A stretch of 61,831 bases of DNA from Candidatus Hermodarchaeum yapensis (GTDB lineage Archaea; Asgardarchaeota; Hermodarchaeia; Hermodarchaeales; Hermodarchaeaceae): the NCBI GenBank assembly GCA_016840405.1, contig JAEOSK010000015.1, positions 1 to 61,831 of the forward strand, read 5' to 3'. The position numbers were made by a program, and so were the translations under genes. Each line of letters opens with the position of its first letter. The first letter of the stretch is position 1. Under the pieces are notes generated by a model. It was given only the letters and a program-made list of their open reading frames with translations, was not told the origin of the DNA and searched no databases. Positions 18,621 through 25,977 of this stretch are shown here, in pieces.

Positions 18621-20366
18621 TTGGCCTCGGCACAGCCTCCAGCAGGGTTGACTATTTCAATCAAGGAACACGAACATACTCTTCTCAACTCGGATAACAC
18701 TATTACCCGATTTGATCCCCGTGGGCAGGTTTTCGTGAAAAATCAATCACGCAAATTTGCTGTGTGGGATGCAGAACTCGAACTAAACCCACAGAACCGA
18801 ACAACACTGGGACTTTCCGCACTTGATATTGGGCGGTTAGACCCAATGTGTGAGTGGGAAAAAGACTTCATTGTAAAAGAAATCGAAGCACCAATGCTCC
18901 TACTTACTGAAGCAATTGATACATTCTCAGAACGGGTGGGTGTAAATCATGCCCTTGTGTTTGAATACAAAATGCCCGTCGAAATTAGCTTGAATATACG
19001 AAACCATTCAGGATCACCCATTCAAGATATTGTTGTAACAAAAGAGATGCCACCTATCTTCAAAGATATTGATCTCCAAAAATCACAGATAGGTAAAGTG
19101 GAATATGATTCACGAGAAGGACAAGTTGTGTGGAAAATCAAGGAGTTGCCTCCCGAACAAATGGCGGTTCAACGGATTCGGGCAAGTATCACAGCGGAAG
19201 ACCCAGAGCCTAAATCCGGTGGAAAAGTTCACGTTACCTATAAAATACCAGATGTTGTTCGGAGCACTCTTGTTCCAACCCTTAATGCTTCAACCGAGAC
19301 AGAAATCAACGTCGAAAAAGAAGAAAATTCAATGCAAGTGGGCAATTGGCGATGTAAAGCTTCACTAACTAATTCTAGTGAATTTCCGATTCGGATTAAA
19401 CGCGTGCAAGTAGTCCTTACAGCACCTGATAACGAACTTCTCTATGAAGGAACACCTAACCATCGACTAGAATCTGGTGAGGTCTGGGGCCATGAATTTG
19501 AAGTCCAGGCTGAACAACCGGAATTTGATATCATTGCCCTTTCCTCAGTTGAAGCGCCCATCAACCAAGAAATCGTGGGAACTATCGAAAAGGCTGAAAC
19601 AATTTTTCCAGTGCTCCGTATTGAAGCTAATAAACGTGTTGAACCCCTTGAATTATTGGCTTGGGAACCAGCACCTGTAGCTGTTACATTACAAGTCAGG
19701 AACACTGGCAGCATAGAGTGTGACGAAATTACATTCAATGACACACTTCCTCCTGGGTTCGAACCTCCCGATAATACTCAAATTCGCGTAAGAGTCGGCG
19801 AGAAGCCCATAACTCGAAGCCTAAAAGTCAGTATCCGGCCCAAAGATCGAGACGTGAAACTTCCTCACACATTAACAATTCAACTCCATGACTTAACTGA
19901 GAATCATACACCCATTAAGCCAGGAGATACCGTAACAGCGAATTATATCACAGTTGCTCGAGCACCGAAGCCGAATCATGAACATCCATTACCAGCAGTT
20001 ATCGAAGCGAATACTTTTCCACCCGGACCAAATGCTAGGACTGATATCCCTGAAATTATGGCCCCAGTGATAAAAGTGCGATCAGTGGTTCGAAAGCTTC
20101 GAAAGACCCGAACCGTTACGCCAACTTCTGAAGTTGGTGAATTATTAGTCACCGTCACTTTTGTTAATGAAGGAGAAACAAGCCTTCAAGACCCAGAACT
20201 ACAAGACCTCATACCACCAAACTTTGAATATGTAGGAGTACCTTCTGGTACGCCCGAACCCACGCTTCGAGATACACCGAATGGCACCGTTGTAACCTGG
20301 GTACTACCGGCTATGATGAGTCGAGAAAGCTTCGTGGGTCGATACAAATATCGCCCCAAAGAATAG
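18621..20366 (+). CDS. Cytoplasmic multi beta-sandwich protein; N-terminal part resembles mu-homology domain (mu-adaptin/delta-COP), C-terminal DUF11-like Ig repeats
   Basis: GLTISIKEHEHTLLNSDNT..GQVFVKN and IQDIVVTKEMP..GKVEYDSREGQVVWKI patterns; VxNxG..DxLPPGF repeats; no signal peptide or TM. Confidence 0.5.
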   Translation: MASAQPPAGLTISIKEHEHTLLNSDNTITRFDPRGQVFVKNQSRKFAVWDAELELNPQNRTTLGLSALDIGRLDPMCEWEKDFIVKEIEAPMLLLTEAIDTFSERVGVNHALVFEYKMPVEISLNIRNHSGSPIQDIVVTKEMPPIFKDIDLQKSQIGKVEYDSREGQVVWKIKELPPEQMAVQRIRASITAEDPEPKSGGKVHVTYKIPDVVRSTLVPTLNASTETEINVEKEENSMQVGNWRCKASLTNSSEFPIRIKRVQVVLTAPDNELLYEGTPNHRLESGEVWGHEFEVQAEQPEFDIIALSSVEAPINQEIVGTIEKAETIFPVLRIEANKRVEPLELLAWEPAPVAVTLQVRNTGSIECDEITFNDTLPPGFEPPDNTQIRVRVGEKPITRSLKVSIRPKDRDVKLPHTLTIQLHDLTENHTPIKPGDTVTANYITVARAPKPNHEHPLPAVIEANTFPPGPNARTDIPEIMAPVIKVRSVVRKLRKTRTVTPTSEVGELLVTVTFVNEGETSLQDPELQDLIPPNFEYVGVPSGTPEPTLRDTPNGTVVTWVLPAMMSRESFVGRYKYRPKE

Positions 20367-20376
20367 GGTGTGCAGC

Positions 20377-21417
20377 TTAGTAATACCAAGTTTCCAGTTT
20401 CGGTTCGACCAAAGCCCGTTGGCGGTCTTTTTCATAAGCTAAACAAACTGAGTTCAGAGGACACACACCATGACAGGGAACCTTGAGCAGATGAGTGCTT
20501 ACATAACATTTCGATGTACACCCTGTAACACAAATAGGATCATCGAGTAAACAGCATTGTCGACCGAAATGCCAGAAAAAATCATCCAACTCTAATACTG
20601 AACGTCTTGCGTACTCTCCAACTATTGAGAAAGCCCTACTTATTTTTCGACGAAGTGCAATATCGGTTTCTGGTACCACAGGTGAACGTTTTCGAAGGGC
20701 ATTCGCAAGAACTGACGATACTGTTACTATCCCTGTACGAAGAGCAATTCGTGTTAGATGGTTATCCACAGGGATTTGAACATGGTCGTTATCTGTAATC
20801 TCCCATAAGTTTCGACGGAGAAGGAATTTGAGAAACAGAAAACTCTTCTTATTGGCGGGATCTTCATAGGCCTTGAATTCCGAGAGTAACTGAAGAAGCC
20901 CTGGATGGTGTGTTTTAGGTTCTGTAGTGATCCGGTGATTCGCAACCTGGAGAAGCGTATGTACAGAACCATGATATTTTTCAGTCAACAGTTGCCCACA
21001 GTTACGCAAAAGAATCGCGCGTTCCTCAGGATTGCGAATTGTTACCCGTTTTGGATGGTTAACCGTAAACCAGTTTTTAACTTTCTTTGTTGTAATATTT
21101 GCCATTTCTTGAGGATGAAAAAGATGGGAGTCTTGTTGAAACATTCGTAAGCTGAGGTGCCAAAGGAGGTCCGCGCCTTGAAAATATTCGTCACCAACAG
21201 ACCCTTCAAAACTCTGATCAGGGGGGCTAGTGCGATGATCGATACTTGTTACAAAGAAAAAGAAACGAGCTACTTCTTCAGGATCCGCATTTAGGGGTGG
21301 AAAAAGATGTGGATTGAGAAAATCTTCAATTCCTGGTTGAATTTCTTGAAGGAGCCGTCCAAGTTTCTGACTTTGGACCGTTGAAATTTCCACTAAATTA
21401 TCCACAGAAATGGGCAC
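20377..21417 (-). CDS. HhH-GPD/endonuclease III superfamily glycosylase-like protein with Cys-rich (Fe-S) C-terminus
   Basis: IPVDNHLTRIALRTG, LDDFFWHFGRQCC, C-terminal C..C..CPL..C. Confidence 0.7.
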   Translation of the reverse strand: MPISVDNLVEISTVQSQKLGRLLQEIQPGIEDFLNPHLFPPLNADPEEVARFFFFVTSIDHRTSPPDQSFEGSVGDEYFQGADLLWHLSLRMFQQDSHLFHPQEMANITTKKVKNWFTVNHPKRVTIRNPEERAILLRNCGQLLTEKYHGSVHTLLQVANHRITTEPKTHHPGLLQLLSEFKAYEDPANKKSFLFLKFLLRRNLWEITDNDHVQIPVDNHLTRIALRTGIVTVSSVLANALRKRSPVVPETDIALRRKISRAFSIVGEYARRSVLELDDFFWHFGRQCCLLDDPICVTGCTSKCYVSTHLLKVPCHGVCPLNSVCLAYEKDRQRALVEPKLETWYY

Positions 21418-21476: not shown

Positions 21477-22049
21477 GTGATGCCTGGATCAAAAGACGCC
21501 AATATCGATGATGTTTTCCGACAAATGACTGAAATCCTCGAGAAATCGCTAACACGAATTAATGAGGTTGAACAGCATATCTCGAAGGACTTAGAAAGTA
21601 TTCGTCGCCAGTTAGATGCAGTTGGGGTTCTCAAAGATAACATTGCGAATCTGAATAACCGCATTGATTCATTGAGTAAGAAACTAACTGAACTCAGCAA
21701 ATCAGAACCACAGGAACTTAACCGAATGATGCTAAAAGCCATCAGCGAACTAGACAAGCGAATGCAAATGTTCACTGTGTCTGAAGTGTTGTCCCGACTT
21801 GAATCCGGAACAAATTATTCTCCACGACCAAGAACTAGTGCACCTATAGTAGCGCCAGTTCCCACTGAAAAACCCAAGAAAAACGTATCAGAACCACCAG
21901 CAGAAGCCCCAAACACTCCTGTCTCTGAACCCGTTCCTGCAACACCAGCCAAAGCGGATGCAGTGTCAGAGACCGTTGGATCTGATCAGCCTTGGCGTGA
22001 ACGAATGCGAGAAAAGTATGGATTGAAAAAGAAGCCCGGAAAGGTTTGA
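21477..22049 (+). CDS. Coiled-coil protein with Pro-rich linker and basic C-terminal helix
   Basis: Heptads over ~aa 10-110, P/A/E/T-rich linker, terminal PWRERMREKYGLKKK. Confidence 0.75.
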   Translation: MMPGSKDANIDDVFRQMTEILEKSLTRINEVEQHISKDLESIRRQLDAVGVLKDNIANLNNRIDSLSKKLTELSKSEPQELNRMMLKAISELDKRMQMFTVSEVLSRLESGTNYSPRPRTSAPIVAPVPTEKPKKNVSEPPAEAPNTPVSEPVPATPAKADAVSETVGSDQPWRERMREKYGLKKKPGKV

Positions 22050-22062
22050 TTTCTGGTTTGGA

Positions 22063-22551
22063 TTACTTCTTTGATTTGGTGGCAGGGGATGGATTGTTCT
22101 TCTGCAGCGCAAGGTAACGCCTTATGAGACGCTCCATTCGTAAGCAGTATAATGCGTCTTGAGCAGCTTGGAGAGTTTCTGAGAGTAATTCTAGTGTTTG
22201 TGCATCGGCGGAAGAAGATCTGAGATCACCTAAGGATTCAAACCCTTGAGCAATAGTAGCCGCTAGTTGAGAATAATGTGTTACACTGCTGCGGCGTTGT
22301 TCCCTTAGGTTGGAAAGTAGTTCTTGGAATTGTGGTTCAATAGTTTCTAAACGCCCTTTAACTAGTTGGTCGATTTGGATGATTGTGTCTTTGAGCGTTG
22401 AGACTTCTTGAGTGAGCTCTGTGATACGGTTGAAAAGGTTATTGAAAGCTTGAGTGACAAAGGGAATCAAAGATTCGTCTCTGGAAGTGGCAGCCGGTGG
22501 ACCTGCTTCAGGCGGCGATGGGGGTGGAGTTGGAGGGGGTTGTTGAGTCAC
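22063..22551 (-). CDS. Coiled-coil protein with N-terminal polyproline tract
   Basis: QQPPPTPPPSPP then heptads; GGTGA RBS before GTG; 14 bp after upstream gene. Confidence 0.8.
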   Translation of the reverse strand: MTQQPPPTPPPSPPEAGPPAATSRDESLIPFVTQAFNNLFNRITELTQEVSTLKDTIIQIDQLVKGRLETIEPQFQELLSNLREQRRSSVTHYSQLAATIAQGFESLGDLRSSSADAQTLELLSETLQAAQDALYCLRMERLIRRYLALQKNNPSPATKSKK

Positions 22552-22565
22552 GTTAAATCACCTTG

Positions 22566-22955
22566 TTAGGTTCCTCCCTTTTGTGAAGTTTCAAGCTGTT
22601 TTACTGCTTCGAGCACTTCATCTAGGTTAATTTTGTTGGTTAATTCATCCACGATTTCGATTACGACACGAATAGCTTCTTCGATATCTTTGAGATTGCT
22701 GAGCTCCTTGGCACGATCAACTTCTGCAATGAGTTGCGTTTCAACAAGTTGTCGCTGTTCTCTGAATGTCGTGACATCACGATGAATTTCTTTAGCCGCT
22801 GAATTGGCTTGTTTCACCGTTTTTTCCATCTGCTCCACTAAATCTTGTGATAGTTGCTCCATAGCCGTTCGAGTGGCCGTTAATTGTTCAGCAAGATCTT
22901 CAATACCCTTTTCGACCTTCGCGATTGCTTCTTTCACTGTAGCAGCGTCTGTCAT
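22566..22955 (-). CDS. Small all-helical coiled-coil protein (129 aa)
   Basis: Continuous heptads; ATG at 22955 with purine-rich RBS, 14 bp after the actin-like gene stop. Confidence 0.8.
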   Translation of the reverse strand: MTDAATVKEAIAKVEKGIEDLAEQLTATRTAMEQLSQDLVEQMEKTVKQANSAAKEIHRDVTTFREQRQLVETQLIAEVDRAKELSNLKDIEEAIRVVIEIVDELTNKINLDEVLEAVKQLETSQKGGT

Positions 22956-22969
22956 TCTTTTTCCCCTAA

Positions 22970-23989
22970 TTACATTTTTGCGGCACCTAACCAACTACTG
23001 TAAACTGGGTGTTCCAATTCATAAACCTTGACGGTAAGATGTGGCATTTGATCTTTTATCTCGTTTTCAAGCCGTGATTTCAATCCAGGTAGCATAGATC
23101 CTCCACCAGAGAGCACAATATTTGCTGCGAGTTCAGCGCGTACACTAGTATCTACACGTCGTAATACCTCGATAATAGCATCAGTTAAGCCTTTGTCTCC
23201 AACACCTAAAAGCGTTGGTTGGAATAGAACCTCTGGTGCCTGCCAGGGTAAAGAGCCAATAGAGAGCTCTGTTCCCTCGTAAGAGAAATTACTTGTTTCA
23301 CTGAAATTTTCGTCTACCGCAACAGGATACACTTTGCATAAGGATTGTTTAATTTTACTAATTGCCTCTCCGTTTTTCGCGATTTCTGAATAGATTGCTG
23401 CGTAATTAGAAATGCCGGCCTCAGCTTGATGGAGTAGGAGCTTTCGAATTTCAGCAGATACAAAGAAACTACCCGTAATGAGGGACAAAATGTGTTCTTC
23501 TAAGAGGAATCCCCGATAAATTGGAGTGACAAATGTCACTGTATAGCCAATATCGATAATCAATCCTGTTTTTCGCCCAAAATAGCCCCAAGTTAGGACT
23601 TGTTGAATTGCGGCATCGACATGCAAGCATGCAAGGGATTGTTGGAGTGTTTCACAAAGTGCTGTAACTAGCCCTGGTTTTGATTGGGGGAAAATCAAGA
23701 GTGTTAATTCTAAGTTTGCACGGTTTTGGTTGAGTTGTGGAAATTTCTCAATGGCATAATTACACAGTTCACTCACCATGAAGAAGTCTTTGTGTACCAT
23801 CCCATCTTCAAAGGGAAAATGCCAGGCGCTTCTTCCGGGGTCAAGGTTGTGAAAAACCGGGTTACCACTGCTGCGTGTGGTGCTTTTGAGTGCAGCAGGC
23901 ATGACTAAGGGCGTAGGATGTTGTGGTGGACCACATTTCAGGTAGCCACTGCCCAGGTCAATGATTACATTCAATGGTGGTTTATTCAC
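22970..23989 (-). CDS. Divergent actin-related protein 2 of pair
   Basis: IIDLGSGYLKCG, FPFEDG, IQQVL, TGLIIDIG..VTFVTPIYRG, IKQSLC, APEVLFQPTLLG, DTSVRAELAANIVLSGGGSMLPGL, YSSWLG. Confidence 0.9.
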   Translation of the reverse strand: MNKPPLNVIIDLGSGYLKCGPPQHPTPLVMPAALKSTTRSSGNPVFHNLDPGRSAWHFPFEDGMVHKDFFMVSELCNYAIEKFPQLNQNRANLELTLLIFPQSKPGLVTALCETLQQSLACLHVDAAIQQVLTWGYFGRKTGLIIDIGYTVTFVTPIYRGFLLEEHILSLITGSFFVSAEIRKLLLHQAEAGISNYAAIYSEIAKNGEAISKIKQSLCKVYPVAVDENFSETSNFSYEGTELSIGSLPWQAPEVLFQPTLLGVGDKGLTDAIIEVLRRVDTSVRAELAANIVLSGGGSMLPGLKSRLENEIKDQMPHLTVKVYELEHPVYSSWLGAAKM

Positions 23990-24103
23990 AAGAAAGTCTA
24001 GGAATGATGTTTGAAAACAGTTTCTATCACTTTGAGCCCAGCTTGTGAGTTTTTCGGGAATATGTACTTCTCAATTTACTTTCAGAGTCGTGGTGATATT
24101 CGT

Positions 24104-25129
24104 TTATTTCTGCTTAGACACCGGTTCGACGAGGTGAACGGCACATTGCCAAGCAAAAGAAAGGGCGTCCTCTAGACCATATACGTTGATTGGTAAATGC
24201 GGGAGTTTTCGTTGAAGCTCCAATTCTAACCGCTCTCGGAGCCCTAGGATCATTGATCCTCCGCCTATGAGCACGATATCGTTTGAGAGTTCCCGTCTTA
24301 TTGTGATATCGACTTGTTCAATCGATTCGATAACCGCATCGACAATCCCGGTATCACTTATGCCGATTAATGATGGATCGAAAAGAACTTCGGGTGCTCG
24401 CCATGTAACGGTTCCCAAAGGGATATTGAGATTCTTCCGCCGGTAGTTCCATTCTCTGGGCGTGGTCTTATCACGAGGATCATGACGAACCTGACAGAAG
24501 TTACGTTTGACATATTCAACTGCCTTTACATCTGTGGCAAGTTTAGCATAGTCGGAATACCGAGTTGATTCTTTTGCCATTTCCTCAAGAAGTCGACGTA
24601 GCGCAGCTGAAACATACAGCCCTCCTACTGCCGTATCGATGATATGTTCACGAAGTAAGAACCCCTGATAGATAGGAGTTACTAGCGTAACTGAATGACC
24701 AATATCAACGACCAGTCCTGTGTGTTTTTTCAGGAAGAGAAGTGCAAGCAGTTGTTGATACGCTGCAAGTAATTTTCGGCATCCGAGTAGCGCACGAAGG
24801 TCGTCACACACTTGATAGACATGGTTTGGATCAACTGGAGAAAAGACAAGAAGTTGTACTTCAGTGGCAACCCGTTGATGGCCTCCAAGACCTAAACGAT
24901 CGAAGATACCGAGAATTAACGGTTTTAAAACATCAGCTTCCGGAAGATTCCCATTTTCAAGGGGAAAGAACTTCCCCGCACGTGTAGGATCCAACATGGT
25001 AAGGTATTGATCACCCATCTTATCGTCCGTGGCTTTCAGATAAGCTGGCATGATTTGAGGTTTAGATTGGTTGGGGTAACCGTATTTGAGAAATCCAGTG
25101 CCCAAGTCGATGATCAATTGATTTTGCAT
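24104..25129 (-). CDS. Divergent actin-related protein 1 of pair
   Basis: IIDLGTGFLKYG, FPLENG, YQQLLAL, TGLVVDIGHSVTLVTPIYQG, VKRNFC, RAPEVLFDPSLIG, DITIRRELSNDIVLIGGGSM, FAW. Confidence 0.9.
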   Translation of the reverse strand: MQNQLIIDLGTGFLKYGYPNQSKPQIMPAYLKATDDKMGDQYLTMLDPTRAGKFFPLENGNLPEADVLKPLILGIFDRLGLGGHQRVATEVQLLVFSPVDPNHVYQVCDDLRALLGCRKLLAAYQQLLALLFLKKHTGLVVDIGHSVTLVTPIYQGFLLREHIIDTAVGGLYVSAALRRLLEEMAKESTRYSDYAKLATDVKAVEYVKRNFCQVRHDPRDKTTPREWNYRRKNLNIPLGTVTWRAPEVLFDPSLIGISDTGIVDAVIESIEQVDITIRRELSNDIVLIGGGSMILGLRERLELELQRKLPHLPINVYGLEDALSFAWQCAVHLVEPVSKQK

Positions 25130-25161: not shown

Positions 25162-25977
25162 TCAGGGTTGTGTAAGTAGTGTGGAATAGGGTAATGAGGG
25201 CTCAAGGAAATTAAATGTAACTTTAGGCTGTTCAACTCGCAGGATTTGTGTCAACCGACTCATTCCGGGAATCTCAGTGGCGACCTGGGGAAGGGCAACC
25301 AGTTTCACTTTGAGTTGACTTGCTTGCGTTGCTAGTTCATGGGTAATGTGACCAGTGAGATAGGTATCATATCCATGCTCCCATGCTAGATGTAGCCATT
25401 CAGAATTGATGCCTTGACCGGATACGATTACAAGGTGTTTTACTTCATCTTCAAGGTTTCCCACATAATCAACTGAAGTTACTTTCAGACGCTTTGAGAC
25501 ATATTGAATGAACGCCTTAAAGCTAGTATCCTTAGGCACTGAACAGACGCGCCCCAAGGGCATAGCCGTCCCCTTTATTGGCGTTTTGAACACATCGTTT
25601 ACCTTGAATCCTAAGGTATGTGCCAAAACGTCATTCATACCTCCATCGACCATGGCCCAATTATAGTGAGCAATATACACAGTCATATTTCGCTTCAACA
25701 ACTGTTGAAGGAGTAGTTGTGGTAGCCCAGTGAATCGAGTTGTAGATGATAGAAATGGAGATCGATGGGCAATAAGAAGACTAGCTCCCTGTTCACCGCA
25801 TTGAATGACAACTGGAATGGTGATATCAACGCAAACCGCCACTGATGAGAGGCGTACTCGTTTCTGTTTTGCCACATCACTCACACCAAGAATAACACCA
25901 TTAGCATCACCATCGGGAACAAATATTGTTGGTGCTAATTTTTCCAAGTTAGCAATAACAGCCCGCAATGTACCCAT
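25162..25977 (-). CDS. Nif3/YbgI-like protein with degenerate metal ligands
   Basis: LEKLAP..D.NG, LLIAHRSP, YIAHYNW..GGMND, LGRV, YLTG, ATE.PGM. Confidence 0.8.
   Translation of the reverse strand: MGTLRAVIANLEKLAPTIFVPDGDANGVILGVSDVAKQKRVRLSSVAVCVDITIPVVIQCGEQGASLLIAHRSPFLSSTTRFTGLPQLLLQQLLKRNMTVYIAHYNWAMVDGGMNDVLAHTLGFKVNDVFKTPIKGTAMPLGRVCSVPKDTSFKAFIQYVSKRLKVTSVDYVGNLEDEVKHLVIVSGQGINSEWLHLAWEHGYDTYLTGHITHELATQASQLKVKLVALPQVATEIPGMSRLTQILRVEQPKVTFNFLEPSLPYSTLLTQP

What the first reader, a model, noticed from the sequence alone, without database searches (positions are those of the whole stretch)
22970..25129. Both actin paralogs lack a D-loop-sized segment, the C-terminal tail and His161
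From the phosphate-1 Asp to the PxExG Gly is 53 aa in both, versus 64 in actin (D11-G74), a D-loop-sized loss. Both end within ~15 aa of the W340-equivalent. The H161 position is L or F (VTLVTP, VTFVTP), while the Q137 equivalent and phosphate loops persist. This predicts nucleotide-binding but poorly hydrolysing, non-polymerising proteins, like the subdomain-2-reduced filament capper Arp11.
Basis: partly seen in the sequence, partly recalled or inferred. Interest (0 to 1): 0.7.

Follow-up and report, generated by a model that had tools for sequence, protein, structure and literature searches.

The report
Stripped-down actin paralog pair, Asgard archaeon
Two neighbouring genes of an Asgard archaeon encode real, selected but trimmed-down relatives of actin that lack the loop, tail and histidine normal actin uses to stack into filaments and burn ATP; the family is confined to one small archaeal lineage and what it does is untested.

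Summary
Window 22970-23989(-) (ArpA, 339 aa) and 24104-25129(-) (ArpB, 341 aa) are Pfam Actin proteins, 38% identical. Phosphate-1 Asp to PxExG Gly is 53 residues (64 in actin) in every complete family member. The chains end 6 (A) or 8-14 (B) residues after the W340 equivalent. The His161 position is F/Y (A) or L/M/I (B). Gln137, Lys18, phosphate-1 and the adenosine loop are invariant. Phosphate-2 is not canonical: DIG[YH][TS] instead of DSGDG.

Both genes are under purifying selection (dN/dS 0.08-0.14). The family is a long-branched clade. In 301 Asgard genomes it was found only in the window's own family (18/18), probably Hermodarchaeia. It is set NIF3-ArpB-ArpA-cc1-cc2, with cc3 convergent. 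The cc2 helical protein, and in the outside loci read the whole trio, also occurs in Asgard families without these Arps.

My reading: ATP-binding, probably slow-hydrolysing structural Arps, insulated from the lokiactin/profilin/gelsolin system. "Non-polymerising" is not shown, and no specific likeness to Arp11 was seen. I found no paper describing the family. This scan has already met the same family on DNA of several other genomes, with the same verdict.

The parts
24104..25129 (-). ArpB, 341-aa minimal actin-related protein (upstream paralog)
   Evidence: ORF. Pfam Actin 113.8 bits. AF2 pLDDT 89.9. Actin Z 36, rmsd 2.4-3.0 A over about 315 residues. dN/dS 0.08.
22970..23989 (-). ArpA, 339-aa minimal actin-related protein (downstream paralog, GTG start)
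   Evidence: ORF. Pfam Actin 121.7 bits. AF2 pLDDT 79.8. 38% identical to ArpB. Orthologues begin MNKPPLN with ATG. dN/dS 0.135.
24965..25048 (-). ArpB shortened subdomain 2 (residues 28-55): 26 residues where actin has 36, with the D-loop reduced to a tight turn
   Evidence: Profile alignment gaps against Arp1. AF2 secondary structure. Alignment to own lokiactin.
23816..23899 (-). ArpA shortened subdomain 2 (residues 31-58), with the family signature LDPGR in place of actin GDEA
24683..24706 (-). ArpB phosphate-2 loop DIGHSVTL (actin DSGDGVTH): D157>H, G158>S, H161>L
23531..23554 (-). ArpA phosphate-2 loop DIGYTVTF: D157>Y (invariant), G158>T, H161>F
24104..24157 (-). ArpB clipped C-terminus: ends 14 residues after the W340 equivalent, at about actin 354
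22970..23002 (-). ArpA clipped C-terminus YSSWLGAAKM-stop: ends 6 residues after the W340 equivalent, at about actin 346. The end is conserved in 24/30 orthologues.
22566..22955 (-). cc1, 129-aa helical protein, starts 14 nt after ArpA
   Evidence: 72-96% identical within genus g1. No known family.
22063..22551 (-). cc2, 162-aa helical protein with a Pro-rich N-terminus, starts 14 nt after cc1
   Evidence: dN/dS 0.03. Homologues in other Asgard families lack the Pro-rich extension.
21477..22049 (+). cc3, 190-aa convergent gene: coiled coil, hypervariable Pro/Ala-rich linker, conserved basic tail PWRE[KR]M[RK][ER]KYGLK
25162..25977 (-). NIF3/DUF34 gene 32 nt upstream of ArpB; a conserved neighbour, probably unrelated in function
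   Evidence: Pfam 136.5 bits. Synteny in all loci that reach it.

Best explanation
ArpA and ArpB are functional members of a lineage-restricted, minimal branch of the eukaryote-type actin family. A duplication produced the two paralogs.

Shown: they have the four-subdomain actin fold and keep the ATP-binding core. That core is phosphate-1, Lys18, Gln137, Asp154, Lys213, the GGG[ST] adenosine loop, and a phosphate-2 loop DIG[YH][TS]. Its Thr/Ser resembles the ParM and sugar-kinase version (my knowledge).

Shown: they have lost together three things. These are most of the D-loop, the last 21-29 residues (the helices that wall the barbed-end groove and carry the profilin site in actin), and His161/His73.

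Inferred: they bind ATP and hydrolyse it slowly or not at all. They cannot make the actin-type D-loop-in-groove contact, so they neither co-polymerise with the cell's lokiactin nor are handled by its profilin and gelsolins. They work as a heteromeric A-B structural unit, co-expressed with the helical proteins cc1-cc2 (and cc3). That helical module is older and was joined to these Arps in this lineage. Whether the unit is a cap, a small complex or its own kind of polymer is open.
For: Fold and family: Pfam Actin; AF2 models at pLDDT 80 and 90; actin Z 36 over about 315 residues.

Motifs kept and lost at family scale.

Deletions located.

Functional genes: dN/dS 0.08 and 0.135. Lengths are fixed at 335-345 aa in about 50 sequence clusters.

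Isolation: family members score 455-513 bits, and the next single-domain actins score 147 bits or less among 1.84 billion representatives. Clade support is 100, with a stem of about 3 substitutions per site (quick tree).

Restriction: strong hits in 18/18 genomes of family f1 and only lokiactin-level hits elsewhere among 301 Asgard genomes.

Pairing: both paralogs are present in every one of the 14 other genus-g1 genomes searched. They are tandem wherever one contig holds both, except G110, where they lie about 1.5 kb apart.

Operon-like spacing with cc1 and cc2, 14 nt each, is conserved in both genera.

The genome also has a lokiactin, a profilin and two gelsolins, so the ordinary actin system is present alongside.
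Against: No biochemical or expression data exist. Nucleotide binding is inferred from motifs only, and an invariant Tyr at the Asp157 position in ArpA could block the gamma-phosphate site.

The heteromer idea rests on tandem duplication and co-retention. Genus g2 manages with one copy.

The cc2 family occurs in at least ten other Asgard families that lack these Arps. The helical proteins therefore do not need the Arps, and adjacency may reflect co-expression only.

The ArpA model has a low-confidence stretch at residues 250-265.
Confidence: 0.5

Rival explanations
1. The pair, or each protein, polymerises into its own non-actin-type filament and forms a second cytoskeleton. This would resemble ParM, MreB, AlfA or crenactin, with cc1-cc3 as arcadin-like regulators or anchors.
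For: Nearly all prokaryotic actin-fold cytoskeletal proteins polymerise, and several do so without a D-loop (my knowledge). The segment equivalent to actin's hydrophobic plug (QPTLLGVGDKGLT in A, DPSLIGI.D.G in B) and the subdomain-2 signature LDP.R are nearly invariant, as expected of contact surfaces. The operon with small helical proteins recalls the crenactin-arcadin cluster (the arcadins are my knowledge).
Against: Both longitudinal faces differ from lokiactin: subdomain 2 and subdomain 4 carry indels, and the groove is truncated. His161 is lost and Glu214 replaced, whereas cytomotive actins normally hydrolyse ATP. NCBIfam models of crenactin, MamK, salactin and syringactin score far below their cut-offs.
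Confidence: 0.3
2. The pair is an Arp2/3-like seed or an Arp11-like cap acting on lokiactin filaments. In this reading cc3 (coiled coil, Pro-rich linker, basic LKKK tail) and Pro-rich cc2 are the activator arms that recruit profilin-lokiactin.
For: There are two different Arps in tandem. Best PDB sequence hits include Arp2 and Arp1. The Pro-rich N-terminus of cc2 and the WRE.M..KYGLKK tail of cc3 are seen only in the lineage that has the Arps; the homologues read in two other families, f7 and f18, lack both. The genome has lokiactin and profilin.
Against: The barbed-end face that a seed or pointed-end cap must offer to actin is the truncated part. No ARPC4 was found in an 86%-complete genome; that search is inconclusive, since its controls did not ring either. 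The tail gives no Pfam WH2 match, and its Gly-LKK spacing differs from WH2 (my reading). The family is a separate long branch, not sister to any Arp tested. Genus g2 has a single Arp.
Confidence: 0.12
3. They are not cytoskeletal at all. In this reading they are actin-fold ATPases or kinase-like or chaperone-like proteins that reuse the ASKHA core for another task.
For: Phosphate-2 with Thr/Ser at the second-glycine position resembles ParM and sugar kinases (comparison from my knowledge). The actin-specific interaction elements are lost.
Against: Overall similarity is to actin proper (Z 36, 25% identity), not to kinases or Hsp70. Actin-family-specific blocks such as PEVLFQP are kept. No substrate-binding insertions are present.
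Confidence: 0.06
4. They are decaying pseudogenes or assembly or gene-calling artefacts of a normal actin.
For: Their short length and missing catalytic His could suggest decay.
Against: Intact ORFs of fixed length occur in about 50 clusters from independent assemblies. The stop position is conserved. dN/dS is 0.08-0.135. A separate lokiactin gene exists in the same genome.
Confidence: 0.01

Closest known systems
Lokiactin and eukaryotic actin (Pfam PF00022; PDB 9wc4 HC1 actin; rabbit actin)
   Same: Same fold: Z 36, about 315 of 341 residues superpose at 2.4-3.0 A. Same phosphate-1, Gln137, adenosine loop and PEVLFxP block. About 25% identity.
   Different: Subdomain 2 is 11-14 residues shorter. 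The last 21-29 residues are absent. His161, His73, Asp157, Gly158, Glu214, Tyr306 and Lys336 are replaced. There is an insertion of about 9 residues and a deletion of about 5 in subdomain 4. The family sits on a very long branch and is confined to one Asgard family.
Eukaryotic Arp1 and Arp2
   Same: They are the top sequence-profile matches: Arp1 8e-35, Arp2 6e-33. Like Arp2/Arp3, two different Arps are kept together.
   Different: Their scores are no better than those of lokiactin or actin. No ARPC or dynactin partners were found (inconclusive). The barbed-end face is truncated, whereas Arp1 and Arp2 keep the C-terminal helices (alignment ends at Arp1 residue 343-349 of 370-376).
Arp11/Arp10, the pointed-end capper of dynactin
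   Same: Both are divergent Arps with an altered pointed-end face that are not expected to elongate a filament.
   Different: No specific sequence or structural similarity was seen in the lists returned. Here both end faces are altered. There is no dynactin context. Published trees place some other Asgard Arps near ARP10 (PMC8850707), but whether this family is among them was not tested.
Divergent Asgard ARPs ('asgardactins 02-05', PMC8850707; the three non-lokiactin homologues of Lokiarchaeum ossiferum, PMC9834061)
   Same: They are extra actin-family paralogs in Asgard genomes with patchy distribution and unknown function.
   Different: In the papers I could search I found no description of a 340-aa form without D-loop and tail, nor of this tandem pair and its helical neighbours.
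Crenactin-arcadin cluster and bacterial minimal actins (ParM, AlfA)
   Same: A prokaryotic actin-fold gene sits in an operon-like cluster with small helical proteins. The size is close to the ASKHA minimum.
   Different: NCBIfam crenactin, MamK, salactin and syringactin models score far below their cut-offs. By sequence these proteins are eukaryote-type actins, not ParM or MreB types.

Membership tests
Actin family (Pfam PF00022) | Profile score above the curated cut-off | tested here: met
   121.7 and 113.8 bits against 27.
Actin family (Pfam PF00022) | Four-subdomain actin/ASKHA fold | tested here: met
   AF2 pLDDT 79.8 and 89.9. Actin Z 36, TM about 0.8.
Actin family (Pfam PF00022) | Phosphate-1 (DxGxG), adenosine loop (GG[ST]) and connect-1 Gln137 | tested here: met
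   Invariant in 30 + 24 sequences.
Actin family (Pfam PF00022) | Canonical phosphate-2 loop DxGxGxxH | tested here: not met
   The loop is DIG[YH][TS]xx[FYLMI]. Asp154 and Gly156 are kept.
Conventional actin / lokiactin | D-loop of about 12 residues in subdomain 2 | tested here: not met
   11 residues shorter than actin and about 14 shorter than the lineage's own lokiactin.
Conventional actin / lokiactin | C-terminal helices (actin about 349-375) closing the barbed-end groove | tested here: not met
   The chains end at about actin 346 (A) and 354 (B).
Conventional actin / lokiactin | Catalytic His161 and sensor His73 | tested here: not met
   His161 position: F/Y in A, with H in 2 of 30; L/M/I/F in B. 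His73 position: N/D.
Arp2/3 complex Arps | Orthology to Arp2 or Arp3 | tested here: inconclusive
   The family is a separate long-branched clade against the nearest actins and lokiactins in a quick tree. Named Arp2 and Arp3 sequences were not in that tree.
Arp2/3 complex Arps | ARPC subunits encoded in the genome | tested here: inconclusive
   ARPC4 PF05856 was not found in an 86%-complete genome, and the controls did not ring either.
Arp10/Arp11 (dynactin pointed-end Arp) | Orthology to Arp10/11 and a dynactin context | not tested
   No Arp10/11 chain is in the top-50/60 lists, and lower ranks are not shown. No reference sequence was available for a tree.
Prokaryotic actin-like families (crenactin, MamK, salactin, syringactin) | NCBIfam equivalog score above the cut-off | tested here: not met
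   Best scores are 38.5 against 300 and 30.1 against 630.

The most novel reading that the evidence does not exclude
The Arp pair is the core of an archaeal, independently evolved actin-nucleating or capping machine. In this one lineage an older helical trio acquired a Pro-rich arm (cc2 N-terminus) and a basic helix-LKKK tail (cc3 C-terminus), together with two minimal Arps. The Pro-rich arm would recruit profilin and the tail G-actin. The whole would parallel Arp2/3 plus a nucleation-promoting factor acting on lokiactin.
Probability: 0.1. Interest if true: 0.9.

Novelty: new variant of a known kind. Interest (0 to 1): 0.55.

Why it matters
[quoted passage not shown] How the single ancestral actin diversified into actin plus many Arps is an open question.

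This family is a natural minimal eukaryote-type actin. The D-loop, the C-terminal groove helices and the catalytic histidine were removed together and the result was kept under selection for a long time.

It offers a clean test of which actin elements are needed for polymerisation, for ATPase activity and for binding of profilin and gelsolin. It also shows that Arp-style sub-functionalisation by duplication happened inside an archaeal lineage, independently of eukaryotes.

If the pair works with the neighbouring helical proteins, it would define a new cytoskeletal module. If it does not, it is still an undescribed branch of a very well studied protein family.

Tried and rejected
1. Complex prediction of cc1 + cc2 + ArpA gave no verdict (score 0.00 in both runs, controls not run). 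It says nothing for or against binding.

3. The ESM Atlas fold search was not carried out by the server.

4. Long proteins of 541-895 aa scored second in the representative search and looked like possible ArpB-ArpA fusions. Pfam shows they are double canonical actins at 330-666 bits, so their scores are sums of two domains. They are not fusions of this family.

5. WH2 reading of the cc3 tail: no Pfam WH2 match even at E 10. For such a short motif this is inconclusive.

6. cc1 and cc2 profiles against PDB sequences gave only generic coiled coils. Pfam and NCBIfam gave nothing above cut-off. The protein-atlas feature search for cc2 gave only scores of 0.85 or below.

7. The gene of about 225 aa that precedes the helical trio in other Asgard families was not found in the window's genome with one protein query. 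That search is inconclusive.

8. The careful maximum-likelihood tree did not finish in the time allowed. The quick tree (SH-aLRT only) is reported. It leaves the order of the A, B and single-copy g2 clades unresolved, so I cannot say whether g2 never had the duplication or lost one copy.

9. Programmed read-through joining ArpB to ArpA: the two ORFs share a frame in this genome, but the frame relation is not kept in relatives (coordinates) and a second stop follows 10 codons later. Rejected.
Full report
WHAT IS THERE

The flagged interval holds two minus-strand ORFs. I call the downstream one ArpA (window 22970-23989, 339 aa, GTG start). The upstream one is ArpB (24104-25129, 341 aa). Both pass Pfam Actin PF00022 with 121.7 and 113.8 bits against a cut-off of 27. 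They are 38% identical to each other.

Their best solved-structure relatives by sequence are Arp2, the Hodarchaeal 'HC1' lokiactin (9wc4), Arp1 and ordinary actins, at about 25-30% identity.

AlphaFold2 models built from family alignments have mean pLDDT 79.8 (ArpA, weak at residues 250-265) and 89.9 (ArpB). They superpose on actin with Foldseek TM about 0.8. VIA-align gives Z 36 and rmsd 2.4-3.0 A over about 315 residues. ArpB 1-341 covers actin 4-354.

CHECK OF THE OBSERVATION

The count from the phosphate-1 Asp to the PxExG Gly is 53 in both proteins. It is 53 in all 28 complete ArpA-family and all 24 ArpB-family sequences. In actin it is 64.

A profile alignment to Arp1 splits the 11 missing residues into 1 + 7 + 3. 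The block of seven lies in the D-loop. Against the lokiactin of the same lineage the loss is about 14 residues.

ArpA stops six residues after the Trp340 equivalent, with the conserved end YSSWLGAAKM, in 24 of 30 orthologues. ArpB-family members stop 8-14 residues after it. In actin numbering the chains end at about 346 and 354. Actin's last three short helices are therefore absent. The next gene starts 14 nt (after ArpA) or 114 nt (after ArpB) downstream, so nothing is hidden by a frameshift.

The His161 position is F/Y in the ArpA family, with His in two orthologues and Ile in one. It is L/M/I/F in the ArpB family.

Asp11, Gly13, Gly15, Lys18, Gln137, Asp154, Gly156, Lys213 and Gly301/302 equivalents are invariant.

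One correction is needed. The phosphate-2 loop is DIGYT in ArpA (Tyr invariant) and DIGH[ST] in ArpB, not DSGDG. Glu214, Tyr306, Lys336 and His73 are also replaced. A Thr at the second-glycine position is what ParM and sugar kinases have (my knowledge). The loop may therefore still hold phosphate, but it is not the actin loop.

The alignment with the own lokiactin also shows an insertion of about nine residues and a deletion of about five in subdomain 4. The pointed-end face as a whole is remodelled.

ARE THE GENES REAL AND FUNCTIONAL?

Yes. Each paralog has about 25-50 sequence clusters in public data, all from Asgard assemblies, with lengths tightly at 335-345 aa. Against the closest relative genome, dN/dS is 0.08 (ArpB) and 0.135 (ArpA).

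HOW ISOLATED IS THE FAMILY?

I ran a profile of both paralogs against 1.84 billion representative proteins. Four representatives of the family score 455-513 bits. The next single-domain actins score 147 bits or less.

The intermediate hits of 143-204 bits are 541-895-aa proteins made of two canonical actin domains. They are not fusions of this family.

In a quick maximum-likelihood tree the family is one clade (support 100) on a stem of about three substitutions per site. ArpA (97), ArpB (99) and a single-copy group (100) form an unresolved trichotomy.

Among 301 Asgard genomes, strong matches occur only in the window's own GTDB family: 18 of 18 genomes. All 14 other genomes of the window's genus carry both paralogs, and the four genomes of a second genus carry one copy. 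Every other family gives only lokiactin-level matches, 1e-21 to 1e-30.

Names given by the sources disagree (Hermod-, Thor-, Odin-, Hod-, Promethearchaeota). Two independent submissions say Hermodarchaeia/-ota, as do earlier notes of this scan.

NEIGHBOURHOOD

The order NIF3, ArpB, ArpA, cc1 (129 aa), cc2 (about 150-162 aa), then convergent cc3 (about 185 aa) is kept in every related locus long enough to show it. The single-Arp genus has NIF3, Arp, cc1, cc2, cc3.

Gaps of 14 nt separate ArpA from cc1 and cc1 from cc2. cc2 is better conserved than the Arps: 88-93% identity where ArpA is 60-70%, and dN/dS 0.03. None of the three helical proteins matches a known family.

Prompted by earlier notes of this scan, I tested whether the helical genes are older than the Arps. 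They are. A cc2 profile finds homologues in two further Asgard families. A widened profile finds them in 76 of 301 genomes, across at least ten families outside the window's own.

In the three such loci I read, the order cc1-like, cc2, convergent cc3-like is kept. The gene in front is an unrelated 222-245-aa ORF, not an actin. So the Arps were placed beside a pre-existing module.

Two add-ons are seen only where the Arps are: the Pro-rich N-terminus of cc2 and the cc3 tail PWRE[KR]M[RK][ER]KYGLK[KE]. Outside, cc2 starts directly at the IIPLxTQAL motif and cc3 ends ...PSDLF[RG]RGY.

The same genome has a lokiactin (cut by a contig end), a profilin and two two-domain gelsolins. ARPC4 was not found; that search is inconclusive.

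HOW IT MOST LIKELY WORKS

Shown: an actin fold with the nucleotide-binding core kept. The D-loop, the C-terminal groove helices and the catalytic and sensor histidines are removed. Selection is purifying, the lineage is restricted, and the position beside helical genes is fixed.

Inferred: in F-actin the D-loop of one subunit sits in the groove that is partly built by the C-terminal helices of the next (established knowledge). Losing both partners of that contact together suggests that this contact was given up as a unit.

The same groove and tail bind profilin, gelsolin and WH2 helices in actin. The pair is therefore probably invisible to the cell's lokiactin regulators and cannot join lokiactin filaments in the normal register.

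With Gln137 kept but His161 gone, I expect ATP to be bound and turned over slowly, as in several eukaryotic Arps.

Two diverged copies are kept in tandem in every genome of the genus. This suggests an A-B heteromer, although the sister genus has only one copy.

I put about 0.5 on this 'insulated, ATP-bound structural Arp unit' reading. I put 0.3 on the pair forming filaments of its own kind and about 0.1 on an Arp2/3-like or capping role on lokiactin.

Bacterial actins polymerise without a D-loop (my knowledge). The plug-equivalent segment and the LDP.R signature in subdomain 2 are nearly invariant, as contact surfaces would be.

COMPARISON WITH WHAT IS KNOWN

Asgard genomes are known to carry lokiactin plus several divergent Arps of unknown function. 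These Arps fall into about five clades, some of which group with ARP10 (PMC9834061; PMC8850707).

In six full-text searches I found no description of a 340-aa form lacking D-loop and tail, of this tandem pair, or of its helical neighbours.

The proteins are members of the actin family. They fail the defining features of conventional actin and lokiactin, and they are not crenactin, MamK or salactin-type proteins. Orthology to any named eukaryotic Arp was not tested, for lack of reference sequences. I class the family as a new variant of a known kind.

STANDING IN THIS SCAN

The same family has already been reported from several other genomes by earlier readers and follow-up agents, with the same verdict: observation confirmed, interpretation partly supported. 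This report adds family-wide residue counts, the phosphate-2 correction, the exact end points in actin numbering, the selection figures, the isolation gap in the 1.84-billion-protein search, and the lineage-specific add-ons of cc2 and cc3.

Noticed in passing
window 18621-20366 (+): A 581-aa protein with a mu-homology (adaptor complex medium subunit) match at 5.4e-10 and a DUF11 match at 2.9e-10. It lies 2.6 kb from the Arp pair and is a eukaryote-signature-like protein.
   Followed up: no
window 20377-21417 (-): A 346-aa protein with a queuosine-salvage (PF10343) match at 4e-9 and a weak DUF2400 match, lying between the mu-homology gene and cc3.
   Followed up: no
L038:4801-7201, L039:5304-7907, L040:4943-7383: In other Asgard families the helical trio (cc1-like, cc2, convergent cc3-like) follows an unannotated 222-245-aa ORF with no Pfam or NCBIfam match. 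There cc3 ends in a conserved ERL[IV][RK]PSDLF[RG]RGY tail instead of the WRE.M..KYGLKK tail.
   Followed up: partly
window 22470-22551 (-), N-terminus of cc2: The Pro-rich stretch (QQPPPTPPPSPPEAGPP) is present only in the lineage that has the short Arps. cc2 homologues elsewhere start at the IIPLxTQAL motif.
   Followed up: partly
G110:C3:47377-50875 and G043 (contigs C42, C49): There are two exceptions to strict adjacency of the pair. In G110 about 1.5 kb separates ArpB from ArpA. In G043 the two lie on different contigs.
   Followed up: no
P0008, P0009 (ArpA orthologues): These two orthologues carry His at the His161 position (TVTHITP), unlike the rest of the family.
   Followed up: no
G000:C30:2-787 (L001): The genome's lokiactin gene is cut by a contig end. 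Only the N-terminal 300 residues or so are assembled.
   Followed up: no
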